Below are positions 14,290 through 64,000 of a stretch of 64,000 nt of DNA, piece after piece. This stretch comes from Haliotis cracherodii. Lineage: Eukaryota. The stretch spans positions 81,592,001 to 81,656,000 of the forward strand of contig NW_027266275.1 in assembly GCF_022045235.1 (NCBI RefSeq). The letters are read 5' to 3'. The notes below the pieces were generated by a model, which saw only the letters and a program-made list of their open reading frames with translations, was not told the origin of the DNA and did not search any database. The position numbers and the translations under genes are program-made. How positions within the stretch are numbered: the stretch's first letter is position 1; each line of letters starts with the position of its first letter.

Positions 14290-14434
14290 AGTGAGTGAGT
14301 GAGTTTTACCGTATTCAAGCCATATCACGGCGGGGACATCAGAAACAGGCTTCACATATTGTACCCATGTGGGGTATCGAACCAGGGTCTTCGGTGTAAC
14401 AAGTGAACGCACTAGCCACTAGGCTCCTCCCCCC
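14290..14434 (-). mobile_element. SINE family A, antisense
   Basis: Reverse complement matches 9247-9410. Confidence 0.8.
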
Positions 14435-16070: not shown

Positions 16071-16221
16071 AAATGGGTCCAAAAACATTCTGACATCTGA
16101 TAAAAAATGCACCAGGCACAATATGTCTCATGATAATCTAGCTCTGTTTGAAGCTGACCCAGAAAGGTTCTTGCAACAATTTGTGACTCTGGATGAAACC
16201 TGGGTTCACCACTTCCAGCCT
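16071..16221 (+). mobile_element. Mariner transposase fragment
   Basis: KWV..(frameshift)LTSDKKCTRHNMSHDNLALFEADPERFLQQFVTLDETWVHHFQP: WVP-linker region plus the first catalytic Asp motif (VTxDETW). Confidence 0.85.
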
Positions 16222-16346
16222 CACTATACAAACACATCAAATCATATTTAGAAAAAGAGTCCTAGAGAGGACACCTAACCAAGTCACGAAATAAGGAAGT
16301 TCATGTATGTTGGAACATGTTGTTTATGTGGTAATGATTGTTTCAG

Positions 16347-16501
16347 ACCAATCATCATCGAGGTTCCCCACTTTGCATCACTCCGTGGCAAAGAGCGAGA
16401 GGTTGTGATCATGAGAAGCGACAATGGCAAGAACTGGTATGAACACCCCATGGTGGCCACAGAAGAAGCAGTGAACGATGCCCTTGGCGGCAGTCTGGAA
16501 G
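16347..16501 (+). CDS. ANK2: Ankyrin exon: ZU5-A continuation
   Basis: tttcAG acceptor; PIIIEVPHFASLRGKEREVVIMRSDNGKNWYEH...GGSLE. Phase 2-1. Donor AAG|GTGCTG chosen; in-frame alternatives at 16510 and 16558. Confidence 0.92.
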
Positions 16502-17440
16502 GTGCTGAAGGCGTGACGCCGTCACCATCACAGTCTGGCTCGGTGTCTAGCTTGTGGAGTGAGCATGTCCTTGGTTCTAGAGCACGCACATACCACTGTC
16601 ACATGTGCAGACTGACTCCAGTGTAGAATACTACTGGGATAAATGCTTCTTAAACACACTTATAGGGTATAAGGTAGACTAATGTTTAGTCTATCAAAAT
16701 ATATAATTTTGATAGAAATAAACACTAGTTAAATTAAAAAGGAGCCCCAGTTAGATGAAAGATTCTGAACCTGTGGAAAATCTAGACTTCATTTGTGGCA
16801 TTAGCATTACAGCAAGGACTGGGAGGAAGGGATATTAATATGCTTCAGGGGACTGAGACGGATGAGGTAAAAGGGAATGTGTACACAATCAGTATTGAGC
16901 GATCTAGGATAATTAGATTTGCTTGCTGTGTGACAAGCTGTCAATGCAGTTTTGAAAAATGATGTGTCAATTTGGTTTAAATAGATAGTTCTACAGTGGT
17001 AATCAATACATGGAGTCTGTCTGCATATTATGTGATGGTGATACATATAATATTACTTGTGACTGAAATTAAATCTTCAAAGTTCATATTCGGAAATCTT
17101 GTACCATGATTTACAAATCAATAAGTCAGGATGACAATTTGTAAAAGATCTCTAATTCTTTATATGTGTCTGTGTGCACAGATCATATGGAGAACTTCTT
17201 TCTTATCAAAAATGTGATATCTAAAAGTTAAAAACAAAGAAGTGGAAAACATTTCACACACTTTTAACATTCGTACCACATTCCAGAGAGAAAACAGTTG
17301 ACAGGTATCGACAAGGCACATCAGTTTTTGTACATTGTATCCTGTATGTTTCCTGTCTCCTCTGATTGTCAAATTTTTGTGTAGAACGTTCATTGTCTGT
17401 AGGCATCATTCGACAATGGAGGTCTCTATTCTATAAACTA

Positions 17441-17611
17441 TACTACTCAAAAGAAGTTAAAGAACACCGGATTCTTGCTTATTACTACAAGTAATCTGCC
17501 ATGCATGACAGATTAACTACAGTAATATGAAAGATTTGAGTGTTCTGAATGATAGATTTAGATATAACATTGTGGAAGAATTAGGTGTTCTTTAACTTCA
17601 TTTGAGTAGTA
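17441..17611. mobile_element. Tc1/mariner-type MITE
   Basis: 28-bp TIRs TACTACTCAAAAGAAGTTAAAGAACACC / GGTGTTCTTTAACTTCATTTGAGTAGTA flanked by TA. Confidence 0.85.
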
Positions 17612-18903
17612 TATATGCTCCTTTTATCAGTATATCCTGTCTTGTATTTTTTGTATTGCACAAACTCTGTATACTTTGTCTTGTTTTATATAAGTATTTT
17701 CTATTGATGTGGTGTAGTGATGTAGAAGTGGCAAATATATGTTTGCAAAGTGGCACATGTATGTAGATTTACATATTCTGTCCTATCCAAATCCATATGA
17801 ATCCCATTAGACAGAGCTGTGTGCTGAAATGGGGCATTATCAACTCCTACGTATAATCCTATTTAAGCATGAAAAACATTTGCCATGACCACTTTTTGGC
17901 ATTGAACTTCAAGTGGTTTGTCTACAAGCACTCGCATGTCTAAGTATGAGAATGCACTGAAATATGTCATCAACCTGTGCACAGCCATCTTTGATTCCAT
18001 CAAAGGGAGATAACTCAATTGATTTGTGGTGCAGGAGGTCAGCCCACTAGCTGTCAAGAAAAGTCATTATGTTTAAAACAGAAGTTCCACAGGTTTAAAC
18101 CCAAACTGACCGTTTCTGTGAAAATTGAAATGTCAATATAATTAACTCCTATATCCTGAAATATTATAGCTATTGATCATGACGTTTCGGAATGTGGAAT
18201 TTTGGTTCGAACACACTTCTGCGGTAGTTCAGTACACATCATTGTCGCCTTTTTGGTGAGGATAGTTATATTTTAATGTCTCATTTTCCAAATATTTTGA
18301 TTCTGTTTCCTGCTGAGAAAGTGCATGGATTCTCTCCTGTATATTGCCTGCCTGTGGCAGTATTATGTTGCCCCCCGAGTACAGTACGGCTATTATTGGT
18401 GTTGTTCATAGCAGTGTATATACAGTGTCTTCCTTCTCTTCACTGGCAGATCCACGCTTTGAAGAAGCATATATGTTTAAAGTGAAGTTTATCAAAATGA
18501 AATAAAAGAACTGAAAAATATTCTATAAATTTTAAGATTGATTAATGTCATACAAGTTTACCAGGTGAAATAGAAGAAGTGAAAAATATTCTGTTATGTA
18601 AATAATTGATGAAGGGAGTCATACTAGTTGGATACATACCTAATGCATACTTTTGGGTTATATTTGTAAAATTGCAAATATTATAACACACATTTTATTA
18701 TTTTTCTCTTTAATACAATGTAAGAATGAATAGTTACACCTGTCATTGGGCATCTCAAAGTAAGACTCTGGTTGATTCTGAGCCAGTGCTGTTCATCCAG
18801 CTTAGTGCAGATGCAAACAATTATTATGATTCTAATGTTGAATGTGTGTAATGCATACAGCATCTCCTGAACCTCTTGAAACCAACTATGGCTGTTATTG
18901 TAG

Positions 18904-19115
18904 AACTTGACCAAGAGGAAGAACTGACAGCCAAGAGAATCACCCGTATCCTGACAACAGATTTCCCACAATACTTTGCTCTGGTGACCAAGGTTCGCCA
19001 GGAGAACAAACAAATCGGTGAAGAAGGGGGCGTGATCAGCTCAACTGTCGTCCCCCAGGTGCAAGCCGTCTTCCCAGAAGGGGCTCTCACAAAGACCATC
19101 CGCGTTGGCCTGCAG
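18904..19115 (+). CDS. ANK2: Ankyrin exon: ZU5-A end / ZU5-B start
   Basis: tgtAG ... CAG|GTAGGT; [34 protein letters not shown]...[17 protein letters not shown]. Phase 1-0. Confidence 0.96.
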
Positions 19116-20687
19116 GTAGGTTCTTGTAGTGGAATAAAATAGCTGAGGCGACAACTCTCTGGGAACTCGTAAGGATGTCCATTGAGGTCACTTTTGGGGT
19201 GTGCACAGGTCAGGGTAATTACTAGATTTAATTTTATTTATTTGGGTTCATGAGAGTACTTGACATGAATTAAAAGTACAGTTCTTATAAAGTATTGGAA
19301 TTTCATTAGAATACCCATGACTTTCTTCAAAACATGCTGTTTATGGAAAAACAGGGGTGAGAATCTTCTGTGGATCTGCAAATTTGTTAATATCTCCTGG
19401 CTTCCCCCTAAACACCCCCAAAATATGGATCACGGTCCATTGCAAAGAAGTTTCAGCAGAAAGGGAACGTATCCATTCTCATCCTTGTATATCTGAGTGA
19501 ACTATTTAGTTGGGGCAGCTAGTTTTGGAAATGAGACAATTGTTTCCTTGTCATATTTTACCGTTACTGTTACCTATGGGGAGTGTGGTATACTCTGTTT
19601 CATCTAGATCATCAAGCTTTAAATGAGAGGAGAACATGTGAGGTACTTAGAGTGACAAAGTTCATTGATTTGTACCTGTAAAAGTTGAAATTGTACATGA
19701 AGTTCTGCAAGAACCATTGATGCTCTTGAAGTTCTCCTGGAATGTTGGGATTAGATGAATTCTTGCAGTACTCTTGGACTATTGTTAGGACGCTCCCTGG
19801 ACTCCATCGAGGGCTCAGTGGTCATTCTCTGTATAGAGCTGAATTCTGTGGTACATTTGAAAGTATTTCAAAAATCCTGTTTTAAAAACATATTGGATGT
19901 ATGTGTTTCTGTTGTTGCATACATATGGAACAAATTCAATAACCTTTAAGTGAGAAATATAAATCCAATTCCATTATTGGTAAGTTCAGAATTGTCTTGA
20001 ATATTTTCAAATGTATCTGATTAAAGAAAGTAATGGGATTTGAAGTTAGATGTTAGCTGCCAGAAATAGTGACATTAGGGTGATAATATCATGTTGTTAA
20101 ATGTCAAACATTATTGTTTTGTGTTTTCACTGCTCCTTCCTACATATTATTCTCATTTCTCAAGCCAGTTATAGTCACGGAAACAAATATTCCATCAGAC
20201 ACATCAAGGTTGATCCTGATTGAACAGACAAATCTCCATGTTTCTTTTCATTCTGTGATTTTGTTGATTATTTCAATTATGCCAGACCTGTATTCAAGAT
20301 ATGGACTTCCATGACTGACATAGGCTTTGACAGTAGAACTGCTTAGTGAAGCGGAGAAATAATCGTGTGGAATTTTGATTTTTTTGTTTTTAGCCTACCG
20401 GGCGTTATGCTGCAAGGCCAGTAAAGTTTGAAGATCTTTGAGATGACGGGAAATTTTGATTTATTTTTCTATGAATATATTTTGAGTTTATTTTGGACTA
20501 TGCTTTCTGTTGTCCCATTAGCCAGTGTAGCGGAGATTGTCGATTCTTAGCATGAAACACGAAACCGAGTTGGTCGTCCATTCAAACCCTGTCGTTTAGT
20601 TTCCTGGACGTAATGTTATGTTGGATCTTGTGGAACTGGACATTTTTTTGCCGTGACACTCGTTTTTCTGTGGTTTCCTGTCGCTAG

Positions 20688-20892
20688 GCACAACCCATTG
20701 CACCTGAACTCGTTGCTAAGCAACTTGGCAACCGTGTGGCAGTCAGTCCCATCGTAACGGTTGAACCCAGGCGCCGAAAATTCCACAAACCGATCACATT
20801 GACCATTCCGGTACCGAAGGCTTCTCAGAAGGGCATGATCAACCAATATGGGGGAGATCGGCCAACACTCCGTCTTCTCTACAGTATTTCTG
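20688..20892 (+). CDS. ANK2: Ankyrin exon: ZU5-B
   Basis: gctAG ... CTG|GTAAGG; [43 protein letters not shown]...[10 protein letters not shown]. Phase 0-1. Confidence 0.96.
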
Positions 20893-22427
20893 GTAAGGCG
20901 AGAAACAGTGTCAGCGGTTGTCATGTTTGTTTATTTTCACATGTCCTGTATCCGTTCAATGTTGTCTGGTCAGTGTATCAAAATACTTGATGGGGGAACA
21001 CGTTTGGCATATTTGACACTTTGAATTTTTCAAATATTTCATCTATTGGGGTTCTGACGTAAAGCCAAAACGAATTTGCCAATTCCACTGAAGAGTGCAT
21101 CAAAACACTCACTTGTAGGTTAAGTGTTTTTTTTGTTTTAACATTTTTCAAACAAGTACTCATTTAGCATTTGAATATTTGCAAACTCATCAAGAATTTT
21201 GTGCATTGTCGTAGACTGTTTTGAGGAATGATTATTATATTCTGTATTGTGTTGTAAATGTACCAAAACATGATGAATTGATATTTACTAGAGAGAAAAA
21301 CATCCAATAGGAATTAATCTTACAACAGAATTCAATTGACTAGGGCATGCCAAGCACGCTTCATTCTAATGGATTGTATTCCACAGTTTAAATGTAATTA
21401 TTTTGAATATAACAACATGCTGCATTAGCTCAGGCTATCACTTTTATTTTAAATATTTTAAATTGCTTAGAAATTTTACATTTGTTTTAACACAGTGATA
21501 GGCACAATGTTATTTTCTATATCATGTGTTGTATTTGTGCTTGTGTTTTCAATGTTTGTATCTGTACATTTAGAGATTGTATTGATGATGTATGTGTTCG
21601 CATGAACCAGGATTTAAGTGTATTTTCATGATCGTCATCAGCTACCATATTCCACTCAGTGACCTATTGTCACAGAAGCCCCATGTCCGATAATATTTAA
21701 TTACAAAAAACAGATGTTAAAATTTTGACCAAGTCTTTAACAGAGAATGTATTGGGTGCCCATTATGTGGGGAAGTCTGCATCCACAATGGTTCCTATCT
21801 GTGACTAGTCCTTGGATGCGTGACCGTCAGGGAAGACCATCTCTAGGCTGTGGCCTGGATGATACTGTGCCTTCGTACCCTAATTGTAAAGGTTGACATG
21901 AATGGGCATTAGGTGGTCAAAATGGCTACAGTATGTTGAGATAGTTTTGAATGGGTGACTAACATTGGAGAGCACTTTTTTGAGTGGCCAAGTAGCCTAA
22001 CGTGTGCAAATGATGTGCAGAGTTGCAGCTCTTTGTTGTACCAGGATCTGCTGATGGGCTTGAATCCTTGGTTTGTCTTGGTTATCGTCTGTGCCCTGCT
22101 GGTTCTGTGTATTATGGAACCCTAATGACATGCAATTGTGCTCACACTGTCACTCTGTTCGGTTCCTGACTTGATTCCCATTTCTGGTGTCTCCCGCTGT
22201 GATATTGCTGGAATATTGCTAAAAGCGGCATAAAACCATATTCACTCTCTCCTGACTTGATTACACAGTGAGGCGATATGGCTGAGATATTACTGAATGT
22301 GACACAGCCATCGCTAACATTTCACCAGATTATATTTGCATTTCTGTCTAATAATTATTAATATAAATTTGGTGAATAACTCCATGCATACAATGTTACC
22401 CATTCAAAACACTTCTTCAACTTGTTG

Positions 22428-22526
22428 GGTACAATGTGTGAAGCCCATTTCTGGTGTCCCCTGCCGTGATGTTGCTGGAATATTGCTTAAAGCGGCGTAA
22501 AACGATACTCACACACTCACTCACTC
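22428..22526 (+). mobile_element. SINE family A, 3' half (another fragment at 22177-22250)
   Basis: gggtacaatgtgtgaagcccatttctggtgtcccc...GCGGCGTAAAAC. Confidence 0.8.
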
Positions 22527-22686
22527 TTCAACTTGTGATATAGAACTTCAGACCCAATACAGATGCAGTCATGTCTACACTCTGCGATATATGTTCTTGC
22601 TGTGTAAATGCCCAGATAGTTGACCTTGACCTTGACCTTTGCCATTTAATGTATTGCTCTTTCTACTTTGTCTTTGCCGCAATTAG

Positions 22687-22710
22687 GCAACAACTCTCAC
22701 AACAGCCGAG
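22687..22710 (+). CDS. ANK2: Candidate 24-nt microexon in ZU5-B (GNNSHNSR)
   Basis: Long pyrimidine tract, then aattAG acceptor and GAG|GTAACT donor. Phase 1-1, no stop. TGCATG at 22784. Confidence 0.65.
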
Positions 22711-23959
22711 GTAACTGTCCTGCCTGCCCCTGCTCTTCGCTTGTCTGTCCGTCCGTCCGTCCATCTGTCCGTCCGTCCATCCATGCATGCACATCCTTGG
22801 TTCCTCGAGTTCCTTCCTGCTCTGCCTCCACATTCTGTTTCATTGCTATTCAATGTAGAAAATAGTTTGAAAATAAGAATTCAGGTGTTGGAATTATAAT
22901 AAATTTCCATAGTTTGTTGGTGAAGACTGTCTGTGAGGATTGTCTGTTCAAACCCTTAGGCTCTATATGCCATGTTAACCCAGACTGACTTTTTTAATGT
23001 TAATTATTTTGAAACCATCAATTTTATATTCAAATTCTTGAAGCCTTATTTTTTTTTTAATAGGTGTCTACATTTATTTTTATTAAAATATAACATATAA
23101 CATTTTGAGTAAATATTGTTACAAATTTCTACCTTTTTGGGAATACATTGGTATTTGGTTGAAGGTGTTTTATGAGAAAATATCTTTTCCTCCAAATCTG
23201 TAAACACCTAAAACAGGTTCGAGAAACCATTGTTACTAGACATGATCATGTATACAACGACCATGCTGCTTTGAATGCTGCTGCCGACACCCAGAGCTGT
23301 TGATTGCAACCCCTCCGCGTGTGGCTCTGTGTCAGAAGCTGTACTGGCATCAGCTGCTCCCTAACCTCAGAATGCATGGCGACAGCTCGTGATGGCTGCT
23401 TCCCCTGGCAGTGTGCATTTGCTGTAGGATCCATACAAGCCATTACAGCCACGCGGGATCACTAGTTTAAAAATAAGAATTCTATACATCTCTTTCTTCC
23501 CTTTCGGAAAATTTTGATATACTTTAACAAATATTTGAATATTTAATTTGTTTTGTGAGATTCATCACTAACAAAATCCTTTCCTCTTAGAACATTTCAG
23601 CCATTGTGAAAACCAGGGTGTGAAATAACCTCCGTTTTCCAAATCCATTTGATTTTGCTCTTTTTGATGATTAATAAATTAATCACCTAGATCAGAATTA
23701 CACTGAAAAAGAAAAGGGACTAGGCACATAATAATAATTCCAGAAACTTATCAGCTCTTTAGCATGCACTTAAATAACATTATTATGGAAAGAAAAAATT
23801 AAATTAAATTTATTTCATCCTGCATGGGAACCACAGCGAAAGATGTTTCAATTATTTCATTATTTTGCATGTAGATTGTCCAGATTAAATCTAAAAAACC
23901 TCAGAGTTTGTGAAATTAGTAAAAATTAAATTCCTTTAATAATGTAAAGTAATATATTA

Positions 23960-24057
23960 TACTGCTCAAAACAAGTTCAGTAAACACCCGTTTTTTTATA
24001 TGACTAACTATAGTCATTGGAAAATGCCGGATGTTCTTTACCTACTTTTGAGTAGTA
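23960..24057. mobile_element. MITE, same TIR family as 17441
   Basis: tactgctcaaaacaagtt... / ...cttttgagtagta. Confidence 0.7.
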
Positions 24058-24637
24058 TAATGTGATTGAATGTTGTCGTAAGTAGCTAGTTCACGCCTGG
24101 ACCCATCACACATCTTTGTAGTTTAGTCTGGCAGTGGTAACTTATTTCTGCACTAAATTGTTGGATTTGGAATTCATTTTGGGAAGGTTGAATTGTATTT
24201 TATACACTGATAAATCAAAGTTTTATGAATATAAAAATAATAGCAAATTTGGTTGAGTTAGTTGAATGTCTGTCATGATGCTTCAGTGATGCCTAGACTG
24301 TGTTTAGTGAGACATCATTCCGACGTCGTGATGATGTCACAGTGATGTTCAAGTTGGGTGGTAGGCTTCAGTAGGCTAGCTTCTTCAGCCAATGTTGTGT
24401 TCATCTGGTTGACTGACCAGATCCCATTTGGGGCTACGCTTCTGACTTGGTAACTTGCATGGAAAGCTAGACCATGCATTAACCAAAAACAGAATAAAGA
24501 AATAAACTTTCAATACATGCATCATGTATTAGTCTTGTTTTGGAATTAAAATATCGACCAAAACAAATCTTTCATTACTGTCACTCAGTAAAAGAACAGT
24601 GGCATGTTATTCATGATTTCAGTAGTTCATCAGAGAG

Positions 24638-24785
24638 TGGAGAGTAGCCGAGTGGTTAAAGTGTTAACTCACCGCACTGAAGACTCAGGTTTGATCCCCC
24701 TCATGGGTACAATGTGTGGAGCCCCTCTCTGGTGTCCCCCGCTGTGACATTGCTGGAATATTGCTAAAAACAGCATCAGTAAACA
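24638..24785 (+). mobile_element. SINE family A
   Basis: A/B-box head and shared tail. Confidence 0.8.
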
Positions 24786-24995
24786 TCCTCTTAATCAGTC
24801 CCAACTTACTTCATCAGAGAGCGTTATACAATTATAACCAGACTCTATATTTATGAGATGGAGGTAAGTTGTGGGAAGAGTGTGTGGCTCCAGAGTCTCT
24901 GCTTCATCTAACTAAGACATTCAAAACTTGATTTTACTCTTGAATGCCTGTCTGATGTAAAAGTGTCTGACTGATGACCTTATGCTGACTTCCAG

Positions 24996-25092
24996 GTGAG
25001 AAGGAGCCGGCGGTGTGGGAAGACATCACTGACGCGAAGCCCATGTCACTTGTCAATGACTGTGTATCTTTTACTACAACTGTGTCCGCAAG
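24996..25092 (+). CDS. ANK2: Ankyrin exon: ZU5-B end
   Basis: ttccAG ... AAG|GTACGT; GEKEPAVWEDITDAKPMSLVNDCVSFTTTVSAR. Phase 1-2. Confidence 0.95.
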
Positions 25093-25452
25093 GTACGTAC
25101 ATCTTCCTTCATAGCTGTAGTAGCAGTAATAACATTCTTGAGTGGATAAGTGATCCTAAGGTGTACAATTTGAGGTACAGAGTTGCCTCCCTTAGTTGTT
25201 CCAGGAACTGCTGGTCATGGGTTTGATTCCTGGTTTTCCCTGACATGGTCAAGCTTAATGGTTTTACCATATTGGTATATGCCTACAACCTTCCGTTTTC
25301 CACCTGCTACATTGATATCAACCATTACATCTGAGGTTTCACATATACAAATGGCTTTTGAAAGACCTAAATCCAAACGTGTTTGCTTTGTGAATGGGCC
25401 CAGTCCCCAGCCCCAACCACTGCCTGCTCTGTCATCTGTGTATGTGCTGCAG

Positions 25453-25681
25453 GTTCTGGCTGATTGACTGCCAGAACATCCAGGAGGCTACCCAGATGGC
25501 TACTGCCCTGTACAAGGAGTCAATCATCGTCCCCTACATGGCCAAGTTCGTCATCTTCGCCAAGCGGGACTCCCAGGAGGAGGGCAAGCTGCGCATGTTC
25601 TGCATGACAGACGACAAGGTGGACAAGACGCTGGAGAAACAGGAGAAGTTTGCAGAGGTTGCTAGAAGCAGGGACATTGAG
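25453..25681 (+). CDS. ANK2: Ankyrin exon: UPA domain part 1
   Basis: tgcAG ... GAG|GTCAGC; FWLIDCQ...[13 protein letters not shown]...[31 protein letters not shown]. Phase 2-0. Confidence 0.96.
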
Positions 25682-26096
25682 GTCAGCTATAGCAGTATTT
25701 TGATTGTATTTGGGACTTTAGACATAAAGAACATAACCCGAACATTGCTTGATATCAACTATATGAACACCATACTTTTATCATTAAGTGTCAATAGACA
25801 CTTTTGTGAGATTCTATGCATTGTCCAAAATCATTGTTCCAACATTTTCAGTATATAAACAGCAATGAGCAGTGTCTTGAGTGTAAAAAGTACTGCTAAC
25901 CAGCTTCAGTGGCATAGAGATTATCTGCTTGGAGGTATTGCTTGATCTAACCCAAGCGATATTTCCTGTGGAAGCCAATTTTTCATGATAAATTGATCTC
26001 TCAAGAACAAACAAGGTCAATGAGTTGTGAATATTTCTAAAAAGAATTAAATGGTAAGTTGTCTGATAATTATAAAGGTGGCATAAATTTTGTGCA

Positions 26097-26328
26097 GAGT
26101 TGCATCCCTTGGGCACGCCAGGAACCTATGATTGCGGGTTTGAATCCTGGTTCTCCCCGATTATGTTTCTAGGTTTGTCTGTCTGAGACCTGCATCACTT
26201 CTGGCTTTCCTCCCACATTAAGCTGACACGCCGCAATATAACTGGAATACTGTTAAAAGCGGCGTTAAACCCAACTCACTCACTCACTCACTCACTCACT
26301 CACTCACTCACTCACTCACTCACTCACT
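26097..26328 (+). mobile_element. SINE family B with (ACTC)n tail next to an exon acceptor
   Basis: gagttgcatcccttgggcac..GGTTTGAATCC..aagctgacacgccgcaatataactggaatactgttaaaagcggcgttaaaccc(actc)n. Confidence 0.85.
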
Positions 26329-26354
26329 GTAATCCGTGTGCACTGTTTTGTCAG

Positions 26355-26606
26355 GTTCTGGAAGGAAGGCCACAGTTTGTTGAAATGGCGGGTAACCTCA
26401 TCCCCGTCACCAAATCTGGCGACCAGCTCCACGTCAACTTTAAATCATTTCGAGAAAATCGCCTACCGTGCACGGTGAAGATCCGTGACCTTGACCAGGA
26501 GCCGTCTGCCAGAGTGGCCTTCATGAAGGAGCCTAAGGTGGCCCGAGGCGAGGCACCACAGTCCCCCATATGCAACCTCAACATCACCCTGCCAGACATG
26601 TCCAAG
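26355..26606 (+). CDS. ANK2: Ankyrin exon: UPA domain part 2
   Basis: tgtcAG ... AAG|GTAGGC; VLEGRPQFVEMAGNLIPVTKSGDQL...FRENRLP...ICNLNITLPDMSK. Phase 0-0. Confidence 0.96.
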
Positions 26607-27930: not shown

Positions 27931-27946
27931 CTTTATTATGTTCCAG

Positions 27947-28150
27947 TGGTCCAGGACACTGTGAGTCGGGGTCAGATGAAGCTGACAGACATCGCGGACA
28001 CCCTCCAGGGAGACTGGGTCATCCTAGCCCAGCAACTGGACATCACCATGTCGGAGATCAACCGCATCAAGACCGACTACAACACTGTCAACGACCAAGC
28101 TCTTGCCATGTTGAACCTGTGGGTACAGAAGAACAAAGAAAAGGCAACAG
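27947..28150 (+). CDS. ANK2: Ankyrin exon: death domain part 1
   Basis: ttccAG ... CAG|GTACAC; MKLTDIADTLQGDWVILAQQLDITMSEINRIK...DQALAMLNLWVQK. Phase 1-1. Confidence 0.94.
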
Positions 28151-28461
28151 GTACACTTCAGTCGCTTAGACAGAACCACAGCTACCATGATCATGTGTAC
28201 AAACCACCTGGAGGTCATTTTACACCAATTGCATGTCGCAAGGCCATTCAATGTCTGCTTCCTCAGAGTTCTTCCCCCCACATAAAGCTGACACGCCAAT
28301 ATACAGCTGGAATAGTGTAAAAAGTGGTATTGAACTCAACTCGCTCACCCTATAAGGATTACTGAGCGGAATATGTTCCAAGTACTAATTTTCATTTTAT
28401 TAAAATCATGGATGAGAGTAAATAAGGTTTAAGGTCTTAGTTTTCGTGATGTTTGTTGCAG

Positions 28462-28590
28462 GTAATGCCTTAGAGAGTGCCTTGCGTAAGATCAACCGAG
28501 AAGATGTTGCCCAGAAGTGTATGTACGACATCGAGACGGTGGAAGATGAGATGGAGGCAGCAGCAGCCAGGGTAGCCATGGATCAGTCAG
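28462..28590 (+). CDS. ANK2: Ankyrin exon: death domain part 2
   Basis: ttgcAG ... CAG|GTAGGC; GNALESALRKINREDVAQKCMYDIETVEDEMEAAAARVAMDQS. Phase 1-1. Confidence 0.93.
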
Positions 28591-28893
28591 GTAGGCAACA
28601 CTGTACACAATACGGAGGGGGGAGGGGGGTACAGGTAGTTATGGATCAGTCAGGTAGGCAACACTGTACACACTGGTCGGGGGTGGGGGGGTACAGGTAG
28701 CCATGGATCAGTCAGGTAGCCATGGATCAGTCAGGTAGGCAGCACTGTACCTGATTGCGATTGTAGTTTGGTCAGATCTTACCCATGCTCTTAGGCTTCA
28801 ATAACGTGACAAATTCTTGTGACCTGTGACATTCCATGACGTAACTACCGGTCACGTTGGACAGGTTCTATTCAATGGTGTTATCTCTTTCAG

Positions 28894-45534: not shown

Positions 45535-45629
45535 AAGAAAGAATAACTCCTTTCTCGAACGTTGAGCAAGCTGCTGCACGATTGGCTGCCGAGGCTGAAG
45601 GAGCTGACCAATCGGAGTCTGGTGTGTAG
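45535..45629 (+). CDS. ANK2: Ankyrin exon: probable alternative last coding exon (or 87-nt cassette ending 45621)
   Basis: gtttcAG acceptor, phase 1; EERITPFSNVEQAAARLAAEAEGADQSESGV* (TAG at 45627-45629). Weak internal donor CTG|GTGTGT. AATAAA at 47049. Confidence 0.7.
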
Positions 45630-48639: not shown

Positions 48640-51021
48640 AACAAGCTGAGTGGCTCAGGCAAAAAGAAGCCGAAGAACAGTCACGTCTTCAACGGCAGGA
48701 AGAGGAAGCTGAACTCCATAGAAAACAGGCTGAGTTGTATCGACAAGAGGCAGAGGAACGTGCACAACAACAACAGGTGGATGATGAGCGACGGAGGCAA
48801 GAGGCAGAAGCCGAGAAGCAAAGATTAGAAGATGACCGGTCAAGACAGCAAGAAATTGATGCAGAGAGATTGAAACAAGCAGAGTTAGATGCTGACAGGC
48901 TGAGGGACCAAGAGGCAGAAAGACTCCAGCAGAAAGAAGCTGAGCAGCTCCAGCAAGACGAAGCTGCTAGGTGCAGACAAAAAGATGCGGAGAAGGAAAA
49001 AGAGCTTGAAGAAGAAAAACAGCAGAGACTATTGAAAGAGCGAGATGATGATCTTGATGAAGTAGATAGGCTCCGCCAACAGAGGAAGGATGACGATGAC
49101 GATGAGATAGAGCGTCAGGAACTAGATCAACAGGAGAGACAGAGACAGCTTGAAACAGAGGATGATGGTGACCAGTACAGGCCACAGAAGGATCGAGCAG
49201 AGGATCGAGTCCGAGGTCCAGACTCAGAAACAAGAGTGGAGGCTGCCCACACCGACAAAGTTGCTAGCCTACCTCCAGGAGGGCCAATGTCTCTAGAACC
49301 TGAGCCTTATGGAGAAGCAGCAGAACAGATCATCAGTCCAACATCGGATGGATCATATCATGATGGACCATCCTCTGTCCCTGAGCCTCAAATGCCAGCA
49401 GGATTTGTTGCAGAAGACAGAGTAACTGACAAGGAATCTCCAATGTATGATTATGATCCAAGCTTTGATGAATTTGTTGACCATAGAGAAGAATACATAG
49501 TCGAGGAAACTGCTACTGAGAGGAAAGCAACCAGTCCTACCTACACAATTCCCTACAGTATCATAGGACAACCTGGTGTCACAGGAGAACAACCTGAGGT
49601 TGTTACCACTGGAAAACAGCCTGAGGTTGTTACCACTGGAAAAGAGCCTGGAGTCTTTGCCACTGAACAACAGCCTGGAGTCTCTGCCACTGAACAACAG
49701 CCTGGAGTCTCTGCGACCGAACAACAGCCTGGAGTCTCTGCCACTGAACAACAGCCTGGAGTCTCTGCCACTGAACAACAGCCTGGAGTCCCTGCGACCA
49801 AACAACAGCCTGGAGTCTCTGCCACTGAACAACAGCCTGGAGTCTTTGCCACTGAACAACAGCCTGGAGTCTTTGCAACTGAACAACTGCCTGGAGTCTC
49901 TGCAACCGAACAACAGCTTGGAGTCTCTGCAACCGAACAACAGCCTGGAGTCTCTGCGACCGAACAACAGCCTGGAGTCTTTGCGACCGAACAACAGCCT
50001 GGAGTCTCTATGACCAAACAACAGCCTGGAGTCTCCCCCACTGAACAACAGCCTGGAGTCTTTGCAACCGAACAACAGCCTGGAGTCTCTGCGACCGAAC
50101 AACAGCCTGGAGTCTTTGCGACCAAACAACAGCCTGGAGTCTCCCCCACTGAACAACTGCCTGGAGTCTTTGCAACCGAACAACAGCCTGGAGTCTCTGC
50201 AACCGCACAACAGCCTGGAGTCTCTGCGACCGAACAACAGCCTGGAGTCTTTGTGACCGAACAACAGCCTGGAGTCTCTGCGACCAAACAACAGCCTGGA
50301 GTCTCCCCCACTGAACAACAGCCTGGAGTCTTTGCAACAAAACACCAGCCTGGAGTCTTTGCAACCGAACAACAGCCTGGAGTCTTTGCAACCGAACAAC
50401 AGCCTGGAGTCTCTGCGACCGAACAACAGCCTGGAGTCTCTGCGACCAAACAACAGCCTGGAGTCTCCCCCACTGAACAACAGCCTGGAATCTTTGCAAC
50501 CGAACAGCAGCCCGGAGTCTCCCCCACTGAACAACAGCCTGGAGTCTCCCCCACTGAACAACAGCCTGGAGTCTCCCCCACTGAACAACAGCCTGGAGTC
50601 TTTGCAACTAAACAACAGCCTGGAGTCTCCCCAACTGAACAACAGCCTGGAGTCTTTGCAACCGAACAACAGCCTGGAGTCTTTGCCACAGGACCACAGT
50701 CTGATGTCATTACCATAGAACGACAGCATGGGGTCTTTGCAACAGGAGAACCTGATGTCACGGTTAAAGGACAAGAACCTAAGGTCGATGTAACAACAAA
50801 ACAGCCTGAGGTCACTTCCACAGGACAACAGCCCATATTTTCTGCCACAGGGCAGCATGACATGGAGGTCAAAGAACAACAGCCTCAGGCTGTTGTAACG
50901 GGAACACAACCTGAGCAGCTGTCAAGAAAGCCTGATGTTCTTACTGGTATGACAGGAGTCCAGCTGATAACCACCACCCAACAGTACTATGATGAAGAGG
51001 TATCAGGAGAATCTACTCAAG
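48640..51021 (+). CDS. ANK2: Ankyrin giant exon 1 (2382 nt): E/Q/R-rich coiled coil plus 9-aa repeat array
   Basis: Part of the 806-aa ORF 48609-51029. aatttcAG acceptor, AAG|GTACTT donor, phase 1-1, 794 codons. Confidence 0.88.
49647..50690 (+). repeat. Coding minisatellite, 27-nt unit (PGV[S/F][A/P]TEQQ), 39 copies
   Basis: First and last CCTGGAGTC at 49647 and 50673 are 38 x 27 nt apart; degenerate 9-aa units lie on both sides. Confidence 0.95.
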
Positions 51022-53338: not shown

Positions 53339-54322
53339 TTTTCGATCAAGTTTTCGATCCTAGTCTGTCATCACAAGACACTATGTATGAGGAGGTTCTT
53401 CCTGATGGAACTAAGGTTAAGCATCGCAAGATCCATCACCAAGGTAAGAGTGTTGGAGCACGTGTGATGGAACTTGTGGAGTCTGAGGGACCTGCTCATG
53501 ACAGGGAAGAGGTACAGGAGTATGAGGAGGTCCTGCCAGATGGCACAGTACACCACACACATACGGTCAGAAAGCAATCTTTGAAGCATGTGACAAGGAC
53601 CCTGTCCGTAGACGAGGAGGAAAAGTCTCTTTACGATCGGGAAGTGGTTATTCCTGGTTCAAAAAGAGAAAACATGCTTGAGACTTTCGTTGCTCCTCCC
53701 ACATGTGTGACCGAGGAAGAGGAAGTTGAGCATGTGCTGCCTGATGGGAAGACGGTTAAGAGGCATGTCATAATGAACAGAATGGTGCACCACATCAAGA
53801 CCCATCAGCAGTCTTTTGATGAGGACTCGGGCACACTGGAGGAGGAAGACTATGAGATTGAAGAGGTTATCCCTGGGACCGTATCAGCTTTCATTGCTGG
53901 ACAAGATTCGGAGTCAGATGACGATGAACTGTCTGGCCAGATGATTGCCAACATGGCAGAATTTCAGGAGATCCTGGATGATGGGACGGTCGTTACAAAC
54001 AAACTCCTCATCAGTGAAGAAAAACGGACAGTCAGATCTAGGTCTGGGTCAATTGATGAGTCTGAGGAGTCTCGCAGAGTGGAAGAAGTTGCAGTGACGC
54101 CAAGTCCACATCCAGGTTCCTTTGTACAAGGAGAAGCCATACCTTACGATACCACAGGTCACGTGCCTGTCCAGACGAGAGAGAGAGTTGCCCATTTTGA
54201 GGAGTTTCGTCATGGTGGCATTGTAGAGGACACCCTGGAACTGAGGGAGGACTCGGAGAGGAAGGGAATTCTCCAGCAGAGGACTGTCCTGGATGATACT
54301 CCAGACAGCTTCGGGACACCAG
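53339..54322 (+). CDS. ANK2: Ankyrin large cassette exon (984 nt) with repeated EEVLPDGT motifs
   Basis: tctctgatttccAG acceptor, CAG|GTAATA donor. Phase 1-1, same frame as the 324-aa ORF at 53383. Confidence 0.87.
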
Positions 54323-56249
54323 GTAATACAGAGGTGCTGTGGAGCTCAGGGTCATAGGTACAGGGTAGATGGTAGCATTTCAGTTTGCTGTGGCCAGATG
54401 AAGCTGGTTGTCTGTTCCTTGTAGAGATTCAGCTTGAGAATGACATTTGCTTAGTTTTCACTTGCTTCAGAGTGATTCATCAATCAGGTATGGCTAGATT
54501 GGATGTGAAGATATGATTGTTGTATCTTAATGGCTGTGTTGGCTTTTGTTCCTAAAGTTCTTTGAGAACAGATCTGCGTCCTTGTGATGAAAAATATTCT
54601 GCTTATTATGAGGGCTTAAAATGGTTGGTGGCTCCTAGGGACATGTATCATGATATATCGCTGCTTAGTGGTGCTTCAGCGATTATCCATTGTCTTGTGA
54701 CAGAGTAACATTGACCTGTATGGCTTTGCAGTAGGATGTCTTCTATGGTTGTAGATGAGTTCAGATTATTATCCAGTATACAGTGAACACTATAGTGTCA
54801 AGCTATAGCACTGCATGTTGATTGTTGTAAACTGTTGTGAGGTTTGTGGGGAGACTACTTATCAACTAACACATTTGGTAAGGGTTGTATATAATGGTAT
54901 ATATCCTTGATGACAGGTATTATCAACTATGCTATATAGGACGAAGTAGGACATCTTTGATGTAAATTGTAAGTGTCAAAGTGATTATGATTTGATGTCA
55001 ACAAGTGTAGGTTTCTGAGGCTCACATTTGAAATATTAGCACACCTTTAAGAGACACAACACCATACACAATTATTGAAGACACTAGGGTTGAACATGAT
55101 AACAAATTTGCTGAAGAAATAGCATAATAAGTCAAAATTAGGGTATTTTGAAGATGAACATGTGCATGACGAGTTCTTGTGTTTAGTTGAATCTTCAATT
55201 TCACTCAACAGCTTCCATAGTAAGGTCTAGCATTCAATGCAGAGTGTTGTTTCTTGTTGGGTTTAGAGTGCCGTGAGTTGACTGACAGTGGCTTGGCTAA
55301 GCGGCAAGTTAAGAAGGTAACATGGCAACCAGACCATGTTGAGGTTGAAGGTGGGCAGAGCTTGTTTTCTGTGCATCTTGCGTGTGAAATGGCATGACCA
55401 TGCCAATATCCTAACAACTTGTTCAGTACCCATGAGAAGCAATTTCCTAACAACAGTTTATTGTTTGGTTCAAATGATACCACCAACTGACTCATTTTGT
55501 TGAACTTAACATGGCCGGAGTGATAGTCTTTGTGATATTTTCTTGGGCTAGAACAGTGTTTGAACAGATGGAGTGTATATGTATTTAGTTACAGCCATTC
55601 TATTGTCATGAGTTACGTAGAAGCATGGTAACATAGACTCACCTCTAACGAGTTCTGAGGGAAGCAGTTTCTCCTCAGGAAGATTTCCACCTTTGATTAA
55701 ATAGGGTTTACATGCTTATGATAGTTAATATAATGCCTCAGATTTACAGTCATTGAAAAAGCAACATAAACATTAGATTCGTTGTTTTTCAGTAATATTC
55801 ATAAAATATCAATAAAATGAACAATAAATTAGATAATAATACATGTAAAGACAACATCACACAAATACAAAGCACAACTGACTCCGACTTTCTTTGCTTG
55901 TGTCAAACATTAAGTTGTGATATGTTGAGTTTTTAAGACATTCTTTGCATGTGCTTGTCAGTATACTTGAAGAGGCATTAATTGTATATGTGTCTCTCTT
56001 CGTGTTTTTCCTCTTTATCTTGTGTGTGTTTAGCTTTAGATAGCCTTCTACCATTTGTCCCTAACCCCCATGAGTAATCCATAACATGTTCAGTTTACTA
56101 TCATAGACCAAAAACAGATTTAGAAAAATTGCAATTTTCAAAAATTTTGCCTGACGTTTGTTGCATCCCAGGGGAGTTGCCTTCGTCAGTAGATACGAAT
56201 TAAAAGACCGAGGGATTATCACCCTCCTTTGGTATTTTTGTTGTTTCAG

Positions 56250-56372
56250 CGAGTTTCGAGAATGGTGCGCCAGACACACCTGTCATTACCATTACGGAAG
56301 ATCTCAGCACCCCCCCTGATGAAGATGATTATATATCTTGCTACGGAATCGTACAAGAATCTGATTCGAAAG
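56250..56372 (+). CDS. ANK2: Ankyrin tail cassette exon (123 nt)
   Basis: tttttgttgtttcAG ... AAG|GTTAGC; ASFENGAPDTPVITITEDLSTPPDEDDYISCYGIVQESDSK. Phase 1-1. Confidence 0.8.
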
Positions 56373-58266: not shown

Positions 58267-58311
58267 GTGTGGAGGCGGCTCCCAGTGAGGAACCAAAGGC
58301 CCAAACAGAAG
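58267..58311 (+). CDS. ANK2: Ankyrin tail cassette exon (45 nt)
   Basis: CTAAC branch-like motif at 58240, acctAG acceptor, AAG|GTACCA donor; GVEAAPSEEPKAQTE. Phase 1-1; TGCATG at 58320. Confidence 0.75.
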
Positions 58312-59834: not shown

Positions 59835-62800
59835 CAGGTAAAGAGGTTTCAGAGAGCAAATATCAAGAGGAAGTAAGTGAGATTGTAACCAGGGAAACCT
59901 CAGAAACCGTTGCGTCTGCCGTCCATGTACACACAACAGAGGAAAGGATAGAAACTGTCAAAACAGAACATGTGTCTGAAACATATGAGGAGAAGGAGGA
60001 CCTTGGTGATACAGAGATCATTTCAAAGGAAAAGATTATTGTAACAGAAACTGAAAGGATTGTTGATGATGAAGTTTCAGAACCCGATGAAACTGAGGAG
60101 GGCAGAGCCGAAACTCCGACCAAGACCATTGAAGATGAGACATTTCCAACTCAAAAAACACCTGATGAACAGGAAGATATTCCTGATGAATGTATATCAG
60201 AAACCAAAGAGGATTCATTTGAATTCCAAAGGGACCAGAAAACTGTTTATGACTCTGAAGAACATATTTTGTCAGAGGAAACAACCAAAGAGATTTACAC
60301 TGAGGACCACAAAGAAGTTTTTGTGTCTGTTCAAAGGGACCATGTTGTTACTGAACAAGAGGAAGTGCATGAGGTGGTGGAGGAGAGGGAAGTGATAGTA
60401 CAAGATGAAGAAGAGCCTGTAAAGGAGGAGGTTGAACAAGAACTTTTGGAGGGAGTTGAAGGGGCAGAGAGAGGGCAGGAAGTAGATGATGCCACAGAAC
60501 TGTCTGAGCCTGTGAAACCAGAGGAGTATGTGGAGGAATTTGCACCAGCAGTGGAGCAAATTGAGGAGAGAGAGGAGGAGGTTGTCAAGGATATTGCACA
60601 ACAGGAACCTGAAAGGGTAACTATTGCTCAGGTTGTTAGTTTCGATGAGCAAGAGGACACATTCCACGAGGCAGAGGTTGAAGATGAGACAGTTTCAAAA
60701 GAACACGTTGTAGAGCAGATTGAGCAAGTAGACTTCAAAGATACCTTTGTAGAATCAGAAATTTCCAAAGATGAACAAGTTGTAGAGCAGATTGAGCAAG
60801 AAGAGTTCAAAGATACCTTTGTCGAATCAGAAATTACTGTTACTGATAAAGAGCCAGCTGAAGAACAGCTAGATATCAAGGAAATTGACAAGGTAGAGAC
60901 TGACATGGTCACAGCTGAGAAAGATGAATATGCTGAAAGTCAAGAAATTGAAGAATTCCAACAAGCTGAAGCTGAATTGGTTATCAAAGTTGAAGAACAA
61001 GAGAAACAAGTATTGGTAGAATATGATGAACAGGTAAAAGCTGAGAAAGTTGAGGAACAAGCTGAAGATAATGAAGAATTTGAACAAGCTGAAACTGAAT
61101 TGGTTAAAGAACAAACTGAAAGTCAAGACATTGAACAGGAAGTGTTGAAAGAAGTGGAGGAAACACATGTCCAGGAAGGGCAGGTTCAGTTTGAGGAATC
61201 TCAGCAGCAAGCTGCAACTGAAGTAGTCACTGAAGAAGTTTATGAACAAGTCGAGGACCATGTCCAGGAAACCTCGGAAAAGGTTCTGGAAGTAGAGATT
61301 GTGTCTGAAGATAGGGAAGAACCGAAAATGGCATCTGAGCAAGAGCTTGAGGAAATCTTTGAACAGGCAGTGGAAGAAGATGTCACATCTGAGCAACTAC
61401 AAGGACAGGAAGAGACTCAGCAGGAAGAGGCAACATTCCAAGGGACAGTAACAGAAACTGTATTAGCCGAGAAAATCTGTGAAGATACAGTTGATGTGAC
61501 AGAAACTGTTATAGACAAAGAAACTGAATTTGTTACTGTTGAAAAGGTTGAAGAAACAGTTACTGAGGAAGCTACCATTACTGAAACTGACAGATCAGAG
61601 GTGCAACTTGAGCAGGAGGCAGTTAAGAGTATTGAAAAGGAGGAGGAGATTTTACCAGAAACATCTGCAGTGGATGAGATTGAGGATACAATTGTTGAAC
61701 AAGCTCCCGACGAAACCGAGATTCTGAAAGAAGAGAAAATGGTTGAAGAACAACTTGAACAGCATGTAATTGAGCCAGTGTCATCAGAACGAGTAGTGGA
61801 AAGTGAAGTTTTGGATGTAAAGGATGATGTTGATGCTGTTATTGTCAAACAGGAGGAAAGTGAATCAGAAACGGAAGAAGCTGAGGCACCATCTGATACC
61901 CCGGAACTAATATTTGTGGACAAAGCGACCGAGGAGGTCGAGGTAGTAGAACAAGAAATGATACATGAATCTGACATGGAACCCGCTCATGTAACTATCG
62001 AATCCACTGAAGAAGTAACAACCCATTTAGTTGAGACTGAACAAGTTGATGAACAGGATGCCAAGATAACATCTGTTGAGCAGGAAGCCTCCAGAGAGAT
62101 AGTAGAGGAGACATTTGAAGTGGCAGTAGTAGAAACTGTTGATCAGGGAGTTTATGAAATACCAGAATCTTTCCCTAAAACTGATGAACGTGAAGCACCT
62201 ACAGTTGGAGCTGAAGAAACATTTGAGGAGGCAATGGCAGAAACCTTCACTTCTGAAAGACCAGAGGAAGAAATAACAAAGTTGGTAGAAGAAGAGAATG
62301 TTGAGACAATTACTTCTGTTGAACAACCAGAAGCCCACGAAGAAGTAGTTGAGGAGTTTGAGCTAGAAGCTGTTGTTACTGAAACAGTTGAGGAAGAAGT
62401 ACCGGAATCTTTCATGGATACAGTAGAACAAGAGAAGGCAGAGAGCATTGTTTCTGTTGAACAAGAACATCCAAGAGAAGCTATTGAGGAAACATTCGAA
62501 GAACCGGAAGCATACAAAGAAGTAGTTGAGGATGTTGAGCCAGAAGCTGTTGTTACTGAAACAGTTGAGGAAGAAGTACCAGAATCTTTCATGGATACAG
62601 TTGAACAAGAGAAGGCAGAGAGCATTGTTTCTGTTGAACATGAACGTCCACGAGAAGCTGTTGAGGAAACATTCGAAGAACCGGAAGCATACAAAGAAGT
62701 AGTTGAGGATGTTGAGCCAGAAGCTGTTGTTGCTGAATCAGTTGAGGAAGAAGCACCCGAATCTTTCATGGATACAGTAGAACCAAAGAAGGCAGAGAGC

Positions 62801-64000
62801 ATTGTTTCTGTTGAACAAGAACATCCAAGAGAAGTAATTGAGGAAACATTTGAAGAACCGGAAACATACAAAGAAGTAGTTGAGGATGTTGAGCCAGAAG
62901 CTGTTGTTGCTGAAACAGTTGAGGAAGAAGCACCCGAATCTTTCATGGATACAGTAGAACAAGAGAAGGCAGAGAGCATTGTTTCTGTTGAACAAGAACA
63001 TCCAAGAGAAGTAATTGAGGAAACATTTGAAGAACCGGAAGCATACAAAGAAGTAGTTGAGGATGTTGAGCCAGAAGCTGTTGTTACTGAAACAGTTGAG
63101 GAAGAAGTACCAGAATCTTTCATGGATACAGTTGAACAAGAGAAGGCAGAGAGCATTGTTTCTGTTGAACATGAACGTCCACGAGAAGCTATTGAGGAAA
63201 CATTCGAAGAACCGGAAGCATACAAAGAAGTAGTTGAGGATGTTGAGTCAGAAGCTGTTGTTGCTGAAACAGTTGAGGAGGAAGAAACACCCGAATCTTT
63301 CATGGATACAGTAGAACAAGAGAAGGCAGAGAGCATTGTTTCTGTTGAACAAGAACATCCAAGAGAAGCTATTGAGGAAACATTTGAAGAACCGGAAGCA
63401 TACAAAGAAGTAGTTGAGGAGGTTGTGCCAGAAGCTGTTGTTGCTGAAACAGTTGAGGAAGAAGCACCCGAATCTTTCATGGATACAGTAGAACAAGAGA
63501 AGGCAGAGAGCATTGTTTCTGTTGAACAAGAACATCCACGAGAAGTAATTGAGGAAACATTTGAAGAACCGGAAGCATACAAAGAAGGAGTTGAGGATGT
63601 TGAGTCAGAAGCTGTTGTTGCTGAATCAGTTGAGGAAGAAGTACCAGAATCTTTCATGGATACAGTAGAACAAGAGAAGGCAGAGAGCATTGTTTCTGTT
63701 GAACAAGAACATCCAAGAGAAGTAATTGAGGAAACATTTGAAGAACCGGAAGCATACAAAGAAGTAGTTGAGGATGTTGAGCCAGAAGCTGTTGTTACTG
63801 AAACAGTTGAGGAAGAAGTACCAGAATCTTTCATGGATACAGTTGAACAAGAGAAGGCAGAGAGCATTGTTTCTGTTGAACATGAACGTCCACGAGAAGC
63901 TATTGAGGAAACATTCGAAGAACCGGAAGCATACAAAGAAGTAGTTGAGGATGTTGAGCCAGAAGCTGTTGTTGCTGAAACAGTTGAGGAGGAAGAAACA
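59835..64000 (+). CDS. ANK2: Ankyrin giant exon 2 (>4.1 kb, 3' end outside window), Glu/Val/Thr-rich with 59-aa tandem repeats
   Basis: CACTAAC at 59765, pyrimidine tract, gcAG|CAG tandem acceptor (59835 or 59838), phase 1. GKEVSESKYQEEVSEIVTRE... reads in the same frame at the start, through the repeats and at base 64000 with no stop seen. Confidence 0.9.
62366..64000 (+). repeat. Coding tandem repeat, 177-nt (59-aa) unit, 9 full copies plus start of a 10th
   Basis: GAAGCTGTTGTT at 62366, 62543, 62720, 62897, 63074, 63251, 63431, 63608, 63785, 63962. Confidence 0.96.

What the first reader, a model, noticed from the sequence alone, without database searches (positions are those of the whole stretch)
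59835..64000. Giant acidic exon missed by the ORF track, with an actively expanding 59-aa tandem-repeat domain
Seen: an open frame of at least 1387 codons with no stop inside the window. From 62366 it has near-identical units EAVVTETVEEEVPESFMDTVEQEKAESIVSVEQEHPREAIEETFEEPEAYKEVVEDVEP, with degenerate precursors at about 62030-62365. Established: giant ankyrins (vertebrate giant AnkB/AnkG, Drosophila Ank2-L/XL, long UNC-44) organise axons, and Ank2-XL has a tandem-repeat domain linked to microtubule spacing and axon calibre. Inference: this is a molluscan XL-type spacer with an independently evolved repeat unit, possibly length-polymorphic.
Basis: partly seen in the sequence, partly recalled or inferred. 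Interest (0 to 1): 0.75.

Follow-up and report, generated by a model that had tools for sequence, protein, structure and literature searches.

The report
Mollusc giant-ankyrin exon with acidic repeats
This is a very long, spliced-in exon of a mollusc ankyrin gene that encodes a strongly acidic tail with at least nine near-identical 59-residue repeats, likely a floppy spacer in nerve fibres; such exons are already known across animals, so it is an ordinary new example.

Summary
One frame is open from 59771 to the window end. From 62366 there are nine full 59-aa units (one has 60) plus a partial one, 4.7% apart on average, with real degenerate precursors at 62030-62365. The host gene is a molluscan ankyrin: ZU5, UPA and death-domain exons lie upstream, so the exon has the protostome position after the death domain. 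Public contigs from two studies show in-frame GT..AG joints into both predicted acceptors (58311|59835 and 54322|59838; short overhangs), and other contigs bypass the exon, so it is alternatively spliced. The encoded tail has net charge -0.29 per residue and no basic patch, so it is likely a disordered spacer, not a direct microtubule binder. Novelty is low. Jegla et al. 2016 already list long exons in Aplysia and Lottia ankyrins and lineage-specific repeat arrays, including 60-aa acidic units in sea urchins. I found no match for this unit, as expected for the class. 'Actively expanding' is not shown: the array shows recent homogenisation and block duplication only. Neural expression, exon end and copy-number polymorphism remain untested. 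Verdict: new member of a known kind, interest 0.22.

The parts
59835..64000 (+). Giant ankyrin long exon (at least 4166 nt; 3' end outside the window); phase 1; tandem acceptors CAG/CAG give starts at 59835 or 59838
   Evidence: joints 58311|59835 (run X1) and 54322|59838 (run X13)
59837..62029 (+). Non-repetitive acidic region (E/V/T-rich, predicted disordered), with a small 72-bp duplication at 60701-60835
   Evidence: covered by contigs of 4 of 4 runs laid
62030..62365 (+). Degenerate precursor copies of the repeat unit
   Evidence: 0 of 500 shuffles; 81-84% DNA identity in two blocks at 62285-62363
62366..64000 (+). Tandem array: 9 full units of 59 aa (unit 6 has 60 aa) and a partial tenth; mosaic variants
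58267..58311 (+). 45-nt micro-exon, phase 1-1, spliced onto the giant exon or onto an exon outside the window
   Evidence: tables 5 and 7
56250..56372 (+). 123-nt exon, phase 1-1; homologue in oyster ankyrin
55267..55350 (+). 84-nt exon, phase 1-1; homologue in oyster and Dreissena ankyrin
53339..54322 (+). 984-nt exon, phase 1-1, conserved in mollusc ankyrin tails; donor to the giant exon
48640..51021 (+). Second long exon (2382 nt; acceptor predicted) with about 39 copies of a 27-bp (9-aa) repeat
   Evidence: its 3' end appears as loose ends before 53339 (X1) and 56250 (X4)
45535..45621 (+). 87-nt tail exon (acceptor predicted); donor spliced to 53339, or read through to a stop after ...ESGV
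27946..28592 (+). Death-domain exon (27946-about 28150) and the next exon (28458-28592)
   Evidence: Pfam Death E 6.6e-12
7195..26600 (+). ZU5-ZU5-UPA exons of the ankyrin core (about 7195, 16348, 18903, 20688, 25007, 25451, 26352)

Best explanation
The ORF is an alternatively spliced long exon of a molluscan ankyrin gene, placed after the death domain, and it encodes a strongly acidic tail that likely stays unfolded and likely acts as a spacer between the membrane-spectrin scaffold and microtubules, probably in axons. Shown: ankyrin host gene; in-frame splicing into both acceptors; isoforms that bypass it; charge. Established for the family: the ankyrin repeats bind membrane proteins, the ZU5-ZU5-UPA core binds spectrin, and fly Ank2-L/XL with Futsch organise axonal microtubules. 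Inferred: the tail works by length and charge repulsion, and any microtubule contact is made by a partner or by a segment beyond the window. The 59-aa array likely arose locally from the adjacent sequence and is turned over by unequal crossing-over or gene conversion, which changes length without breaking the frame. Identity as an ankyrin long exon about 0.93; the axonal spacer role about 0.6.
For: Upstream exons hit Pfam ZU5, UPA_2 and Death (the second ZU5 piece is below the curated cut-off). All 4 of 4 and 5 of 5 PDB hits are ankyrin-1/2/3. The top 66 of 95 hits of the UPA exon are 81-94% identical, and the named ones among them are mollusc proteins; insect hits are 62-68%. Joints 58311|59835 (X1, study P1) and 54322|59838 (X13, study P5) are GT..AG and keep the frame (phase 1). 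The only gap in the listed giant-exon contigs is a 12-nt deletion at 60898 (X4, X17); 10 of 11 listed intronic indels are not multiples of three (16 more not shown). Oyster ankyrin models P0063-65 carry homologues of the 53339, 55267 and 56250 exons in the same order, followed in P0063 by a 697-aa acidic tail. S+E+T+D+K+P make up 57.5% against >55% for long exons in PMC5135030. Charge-hydropathy lies on the disordered side (H 0.405, boundary 0.518), and no 20-residue window has a net positive charge. 16 of 55 informative site pairs fail the four-gamete test, and a 312-nt exact block duplication lies 4 units apart.
Against: The joints rest on one contig each, with 23 and 28 letters on the short side, below the 31 that the tool asks for to count a bridge; likeness was set to 88; the runs are only guessed to be RNA. 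No contig links the ankyrin core to the giant exon in one piece. Tissue is unknown. In X17 the depth shows almost no step at the exon (18-29 against 15-17). Serine is low (5.3%) and valine high (14.8%) compared with the family bias. In fly, only a fraction of the XL array is needed for axon diameter (PMC5135030), which argues against a strict ruler. Molluscs have neurofilaments (recalled; squid NF/MT ratio in PMC7337489), so the fly role need not carry over. Selection among units is not significant (pN/pS 0.55, p 0.15).
Confidence: 0.62

Rival explanations
1. The exon is a real ankyrin long exon, but the array is nearly neutral: tandem turnover inside a weakly constrained disordered linker, with selection only against stops and frameshifts. 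The unit has no dedicated role.
For: 15 of 22 distinct changes among units alter the amino acid, and the excess of synonymous change is not significant. Lottia and several other ankyrins have long exons with no array (PMC5135030 S4 Table). Only a fraction of the fly array is needed.
Against: pN/pS is below 1 (0.55) and most changes are conservative, though the test is weak. Arrays have arisen repeatedly in long exons, and vertebrate gAnkB repeats are functional (PMC7401806).
Confidence: 0.2
2. The giant exon serves a non-neural (for example muscle) isoform, perhaps from an internal promoter without ankyrin repeats, as an elastic glutamate-rich tether like the poly-E parts of titin (comparison recalled).
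For: The stretch is held by 22 listed runs from 9 studies whose tissue is not given. Oyster models P0063-65 begin at the ZU5 domain, without ankyrin repeats. No single contig ties the exon to the core.
Against: Giant ankyrins are neuronal in fly, worm, vertebrates and Ciona larvae (PMC5135030; PMC7337489). The oyster models are predictions.
Confidence: 0.12
3. The exon is real, but copy number and the exact block duplications of the array are partly assembly artefacts.
For: The window has a scaffold gap (N at 8949-9177). Exact blocks of 312 and 162 nt recur. The listed contigs of X1 and X13 appear to end about where the array starts (inferred from record coordinates).
Against: No two of the nine full units are identical (1-15 differences), the frame is intact throughout, and the array grades into real precursors.
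Confidence: 0.05
4. The ORF belongs to a separate nested gene or a mobile element, not to ankyrin.
For: No sequence homology to any known ankyrin long exon was found.
Against: In-frame joints from exons that are homologous to mollusc ankyrin tails. Lack of homology is the rule for long exons (PMC5135030).
Confidence: 0.01

Closest known systems
Protostome giant ankyrins of Aplysia (long exons 7569 and 6560+ bp; repeats 5x32 aa and 5x24 aa) and Lottia (6818 bp, no array); PMC5135030 S4 Table
   Same: Molluscan ankyrin with long exon(s) after the death domain; acidic composition; two long exons and short arrays in Aplysia
   Different: Unit of 59 aa, not like the listed Aplysia units by eye (not computed); at least 9 copies, highly homogeneous; exon end unknown; their long-exon sequences were cut in the supplement, so no alignment was possible
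Sea-urchin ankyrin long exons (Strongylocentrotus 16x60 aa, Lytechinus 12x60 aa); PMC5135030 S4 Table
   Same: After the death domain; E/V/T-rich acidic unit of almost the same length and a similar copy number
   Different: No evident sequence homology by eye (not computed); different phylum, so likely convergent
Drosophila Ank2-XL (27.8-kb exon, 93x76 aa)
   Same: After the death domain; near-identical long units; spacer role proposed
   Different: The fly unit mixes K with D/E, this one has 22 acidic and 3 basic residues; far fewer copies seen; terminal position and Futsch link untested here
Vertebrate giant ankyrin-B 12-aa repeats (PMC7401806)
   Same: Disordered tandem repeats in a giant exon
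   Different: Those are basic (pI 10.6), bind microtubules directly and lie before the death domain; this unit is strongly acidic and lies after it

Membership tests
Canonical ankyrin (host gene) | ZU5-ZU5-UPA cassette | tested here: met
   Pfam ZU5 and UPA_2; PDB ankyrin hits E 1e-26 to 1e-15; colinear exons
Canonical ankyrin (host gene) | Death domain after UPA | tested here: met
   Pfam Death E 6.6e-12
Canonical ankyrin (host gene) | Best matches are ankyrins | tested here: met
   4 of 4 and 5 of 5 PDB hits are ankyrin-1/2/3
Canonical ankyrin (host gene) | 24 N-terminal ankyrin repeats | not testable with these tools
   They would lie upstream of the window: first match of full-length homologues is at about 7195; no genome held
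Protostome giant-ankyrin long exon | Position downstream of the death domain | tested here: met
   Death domain at 27946; exon at 59835
Protostome giant-ankyrin long exon | Unbroken ORF of thousands of nucleotides | tested here: met
   At least 4163 nt; published range 2091-27804 bp
Protostome giant-ankyrin long exon | S+E about 25%, S/E/T/D/K/P above 55% | tested here: met
   35.8% and 57.5%, but driven by E (30.5%)
Protostome giant-ankyrin long exon | Spliced in frame to ankyrin tail exons | tested here: met
   Two GT..AG joints in two studies, short overhangs
Protostome giant-ankyrin long exon | Present in one transcript with the ankyrin core | tested here: inconclusive
   Only a chain of local joints and oyster gene models
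Protostome giant-ankyrin long exon | Neural expression and axonal localisation | not testable with these tools
   Run tissue not given
Drosophila Ank2-XL type | Large core array of near-identical long units | tested here: inconclusive
   At least 9 units; array end outside the window
Drosophila Ank2-XL type | Exon at the 3' end of the transcript; microtubule organisation with Futsch/MAP1B | not testable with these tools
   Exon end not in the window; needs experiments
Giant ankyrin-B microtubule-binding repeats | Positively charged repeats upstream of the death domain | tested here: not met
   Unit has 22 D/E and 3 K/R; best 20-aa window is -1; lies after the death domain

The most novel reading that the evidence does not exclude
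The array is a fast-turning, length-variable molecular ruler: copy number differs among individuals or sister species and sets membrane-to-microtubule distance and axon calibre in this mollusc. That would give a natural allelic series to test the spacer model of giant ankyrins outside the fly.
Probability: 0.08. Interest if true: 0.6.

Novelty: new member of a known kind. Interest (0 to 1): 0.22.

Why it matters
It adds a splice-supported molluscan example to the view that bilaterian giant ankyrins keep length and acidity while sequence and repeat units turn over. It also gives gene annotators an exon that is easily dropped. It would matter more only if copy number varies naturally and tracks axon diameter or conduction speed, because that would test the molecular-spacer idea directly.

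Tried and rejected
No whole genome is held, so the exon end could not be read. Homology searches for the exon or unit were blank: Pfam 0 families; word-based search 0 of 2895 candidates, proteins of 2429-5000 aa only; HMMER over 1.84 billion representatives, 0 hits; PDB 0; ESM Atlas no usable hit; none against 50 fetched proteins. These blanks are weak evidence: the query is low in complexity and giant isoforms above 5000 aa were not searched. No run is on record as RNA ('no RNA holder listed'). Contig depth was not used to rank exons. BLAST tests of the precursor region at protein level (best 34-35 bits, shuffle max 33) and DNA level (33.7 bits, codon-shuffle max 36.5) did not beat composition noise; a gapped two-unit alignment did. 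The 48.6-kb exon query was in the wrong frame and is void; it was redone. No SxIP motif, and no convincing hit of my LIR pattern (patterns recalled). Direct microtubule binding of the gAnkB kind was rejected on charge. Stephan et al. 2015 is not held; it is cited only through other papers. Literature searches: unit motif 0 papers; Ank2-XL + tandem repeat + spacing 0; nothing relevant among the listed rows for mollusc giant ankyrin or for repeat polymorphism. Earlier scan findings: none. No structure or complex prediction was run: a single low-complexity sequence would not be informative.

Full report
OBSERVATION. One + frame is open from 59771 to the window end (1410 aa); 59837-63997 gives 1387 codons with no stop. 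Translation from 59835 itself is full of stops, because the exon is phase 1. Chance is excluded: about 1e-27 for the 843 non-repeat codons, with 45 and 117 stops in the other two + frames. TRF reports a 177-bp period, 9.5 copies, 94% matches. There are nine full units from 62366 (eight of 177 nt, one of 180 nt) and 39 nt of a tenth; unit 1 is the quoted sequence. Mean pairwise difference is 4.7% (0.6-8.5%). The precursor zone 62030-62365 is real: score 149 against a two-unit query, 0 of 500 shuffles, best of 62 upstream windows 110. Simpler BLAST tests did not beat composition noise.

HOST GENE. Upstream ORFs hit Pfam ZU5, UPA_2 and Death, and every PDB hit of two of these exons is an ankyrin (4 of 4; 5 of 5). 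The UPA exon's top 66 of 95 hits are 81-94% identical, and the named ones among them are mollusc proteins, gastropods first; insects reach 62-68%. Over five exons from UPA onward the identity is 83.7% to Batillaria, 82.0% to Octopus, 77-80% to heterobranch snails, 69-78% to bivalves and 46-56% to insects. So 'mollusc' is supported and 'gastropod' is likely but not settled. Homologue mapping gives a colinear exon series from about 7195 to 54100. The ankyrin repeats lie upstream of the window and were not seen. The giant exon is about 32 kb downstream of the death domain, the protostome position (PMC5135030, section 9 part 1 read).

SPLICING. 22 public runs from 9 studies hold half or more of the sampled words; none is on record as RNA. 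I laid 4 of them on 51100-62300, which leaves out the array. Joints, all GT..AG: 54322|59838 (X13), 58311|59835 (X1), 56372|58267 (X1), 54322|55267 (X1). The four small exons are phase 1-1 and keep the frame. Caveats: one contig per joint, 23-29 letters on the short side (below the tool's bar of 31 for a bridge), likeness 88. Short side plus shared letters equals 30 for the two giant-exon joints, which is what unitigs cut at a branch point would give (inference). Loose ends behind donors 54322, 55350 and 58311 go to two exons that are absent from the window (0 matches), presumably downstream; these are likely isoforms that skip the giant exon. Loose ends before 53339 and 56250 match the ends of exons at 45621 and 51021. 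Depth steps up at the exon in X1 and X13, weakly in X4 and hardly in X17; the tool warns against ranking by it, so it is a hint only. The only gap in the listed giant-exon contigs is a 12-nt deletion at 60898 (X4, X17), while 10 of 11 listed intronic indels are not multiples of three (16 more not shown). Oyster models P0063-65 carry homologues of exons 53339, 55267 and 56250 in order, followed in P0063 by a 697-aa acidic tail with 55% S/E/T/D/K/P. No contig joins core and giant exon in one piece, and tissue is unknown.

THE PROTEIN. 30.5% E, 14.8% V; S+E 35.8%; S/E/T/D/K/P 57.5%; net charge -0.29 per residue. Charge-hydropathy falls on the disordered side (H 0.405 against a boundary of 0.518; formula recalled), and no 20-residue window is net positive. 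The unit has 22 acidic and 3 basic residues. Giant ankyrin-B binds microtubules through basic repeats (pI 10.6; PMC7401806, outline and passages read), so that mechanism does not fit. An extended, self-repelling spacer does (inference). The exon is 37.5% A with 71 GAA per kb, like the A-rich giant cassette exons, ANK2 and ANK3 among them, that SAFB represses in mammalian cells (PMC10901741, passages read). This is a lead for regulation and partly a consequence of glutamate codons.

THE ARRAY. Unit variants are mosaic. Units 2, 5 and 9 differ by 1-2 nt; a 312-nt block repeats exactly 711 nt away and a 162-nt block 531 nt away; 16 of 55 informative site pairs fail the four-gamete test. This indicates recent duplication and exchange among units. 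It does not show net growth. Of 22 distinct changes, 7 are synonymous and 15 are not (pN/pS 0.55, p 0.15); none makes a stop, and the one indel is a whole codon. Copy number in other individuals was not measured.

MECHANISM. Shown: ankyrin host, in-frame inclusion, bypass isoforms, extreme acidity. Established for the family: membrane-protein and spectrin binding by the core (PMC5135030 introduction passage); fly Ank2-L/XL with Futsch organise axonal microtubules and calibre (passages in PMC6703079, PMC6131297 and PMC7337489; Stephan 2015 itself not held). Inferred: the giant isoform tethers at the membrane and projects a long acidic coil that spaces the cortex from microtubules, with contact made by a partner or by a segment beyond the window. 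Against a strict ruler: only a fraction of the fly array is needed. Rivals are a near-neutral array (0.2), a non-neural tether (0.12), partial assembly artefact (0.05) and a separate gene (0.01).

COMPARISON AND NOVELTY. From PMC5135030 I read the abstract, passages, sections 8 and 15, part 1 of 2 of section 9, S4 Table whole and two cut rows of S2 Table. It reports long exons in 23 of 36 bilaterian ankyrins, Aplysia (two) and Lottia among them; arrays of 5 to more than 160 units of 36-228 bp in a subset; and homology of units only between very close species. Sea urchins have 16 and 12 copies of an acidic 60-aa unit, honey bee 41 of about 61 aa. An unmatched 59-aa unit is thus what the class predicts. 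My blank searches are weak and add little. The cut S2 cells may bear on homology to Aplysia or Lottia long exons.

VERDICT. Observation confirmed and the splice test passed with caveats; interpretation partly supported; new member of a known kind; interest 0.22. The boldest reading not excluded is a length-polymorphic ruler for axon calibre (probability 0.08, interest 0.6).

Noticed in passing
window 48640-51021 (+): A second long exon (2382 nt) with a Q/E/R-rich start and about 39 copies of a 9-aa repeat. Its 3' end is spliced to 53339 or 56250, so the locus has two repeat-bearing long exons, as Aplysia does.
   Followed up: partly
window 59836, run X17 (table 7): A contig enters acceptor 59838 from 25 letters that match nowhere in the window but read in frame: an exon missing from this assembly, a back-splice from a downstream exon, or a paralogous joint.
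   Followed up: partly
window 45535-45630 (+): Read-through of the donor at 45621 ends the protein in ...ESGV. 50 of 67 top hits end in GV (48 share one ending, as in the Octopus isoforms; one Batillaria; one Potamilus), so short isoforms likely end by the same route. S/T-G-V resembles a class I PDZ-binding end (recalled).
   Followed up: partly
window 53339-54322 (+): Exon with repeated EEVLPDGT-type motifs, conserved in oyster, Dreissena and P0062 (35-49%); no Pfam, PDB or Atlas match. It recalls the C-terminal repeats of vertebrate ankyrins that include the obscurin-binding site (recalled, untested).
   Followed up: partly
window 60929, run X17 (table 7): A contig leaves the exon into 255 or more unlike letters at a place that is not a GT donor.
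   Followed up: no
window 30060-30873, 38783-39527, 44140-44962, 11029-11384, 27639-27931: Intronic minisatellites of 16, 34, 39, 23/46 and 21/105 bp.
   Followed up: no
window 8949-9177: A run of 229 N (scaffold gap) in the intron between the first two ZU5 exons.
   Followed up: no
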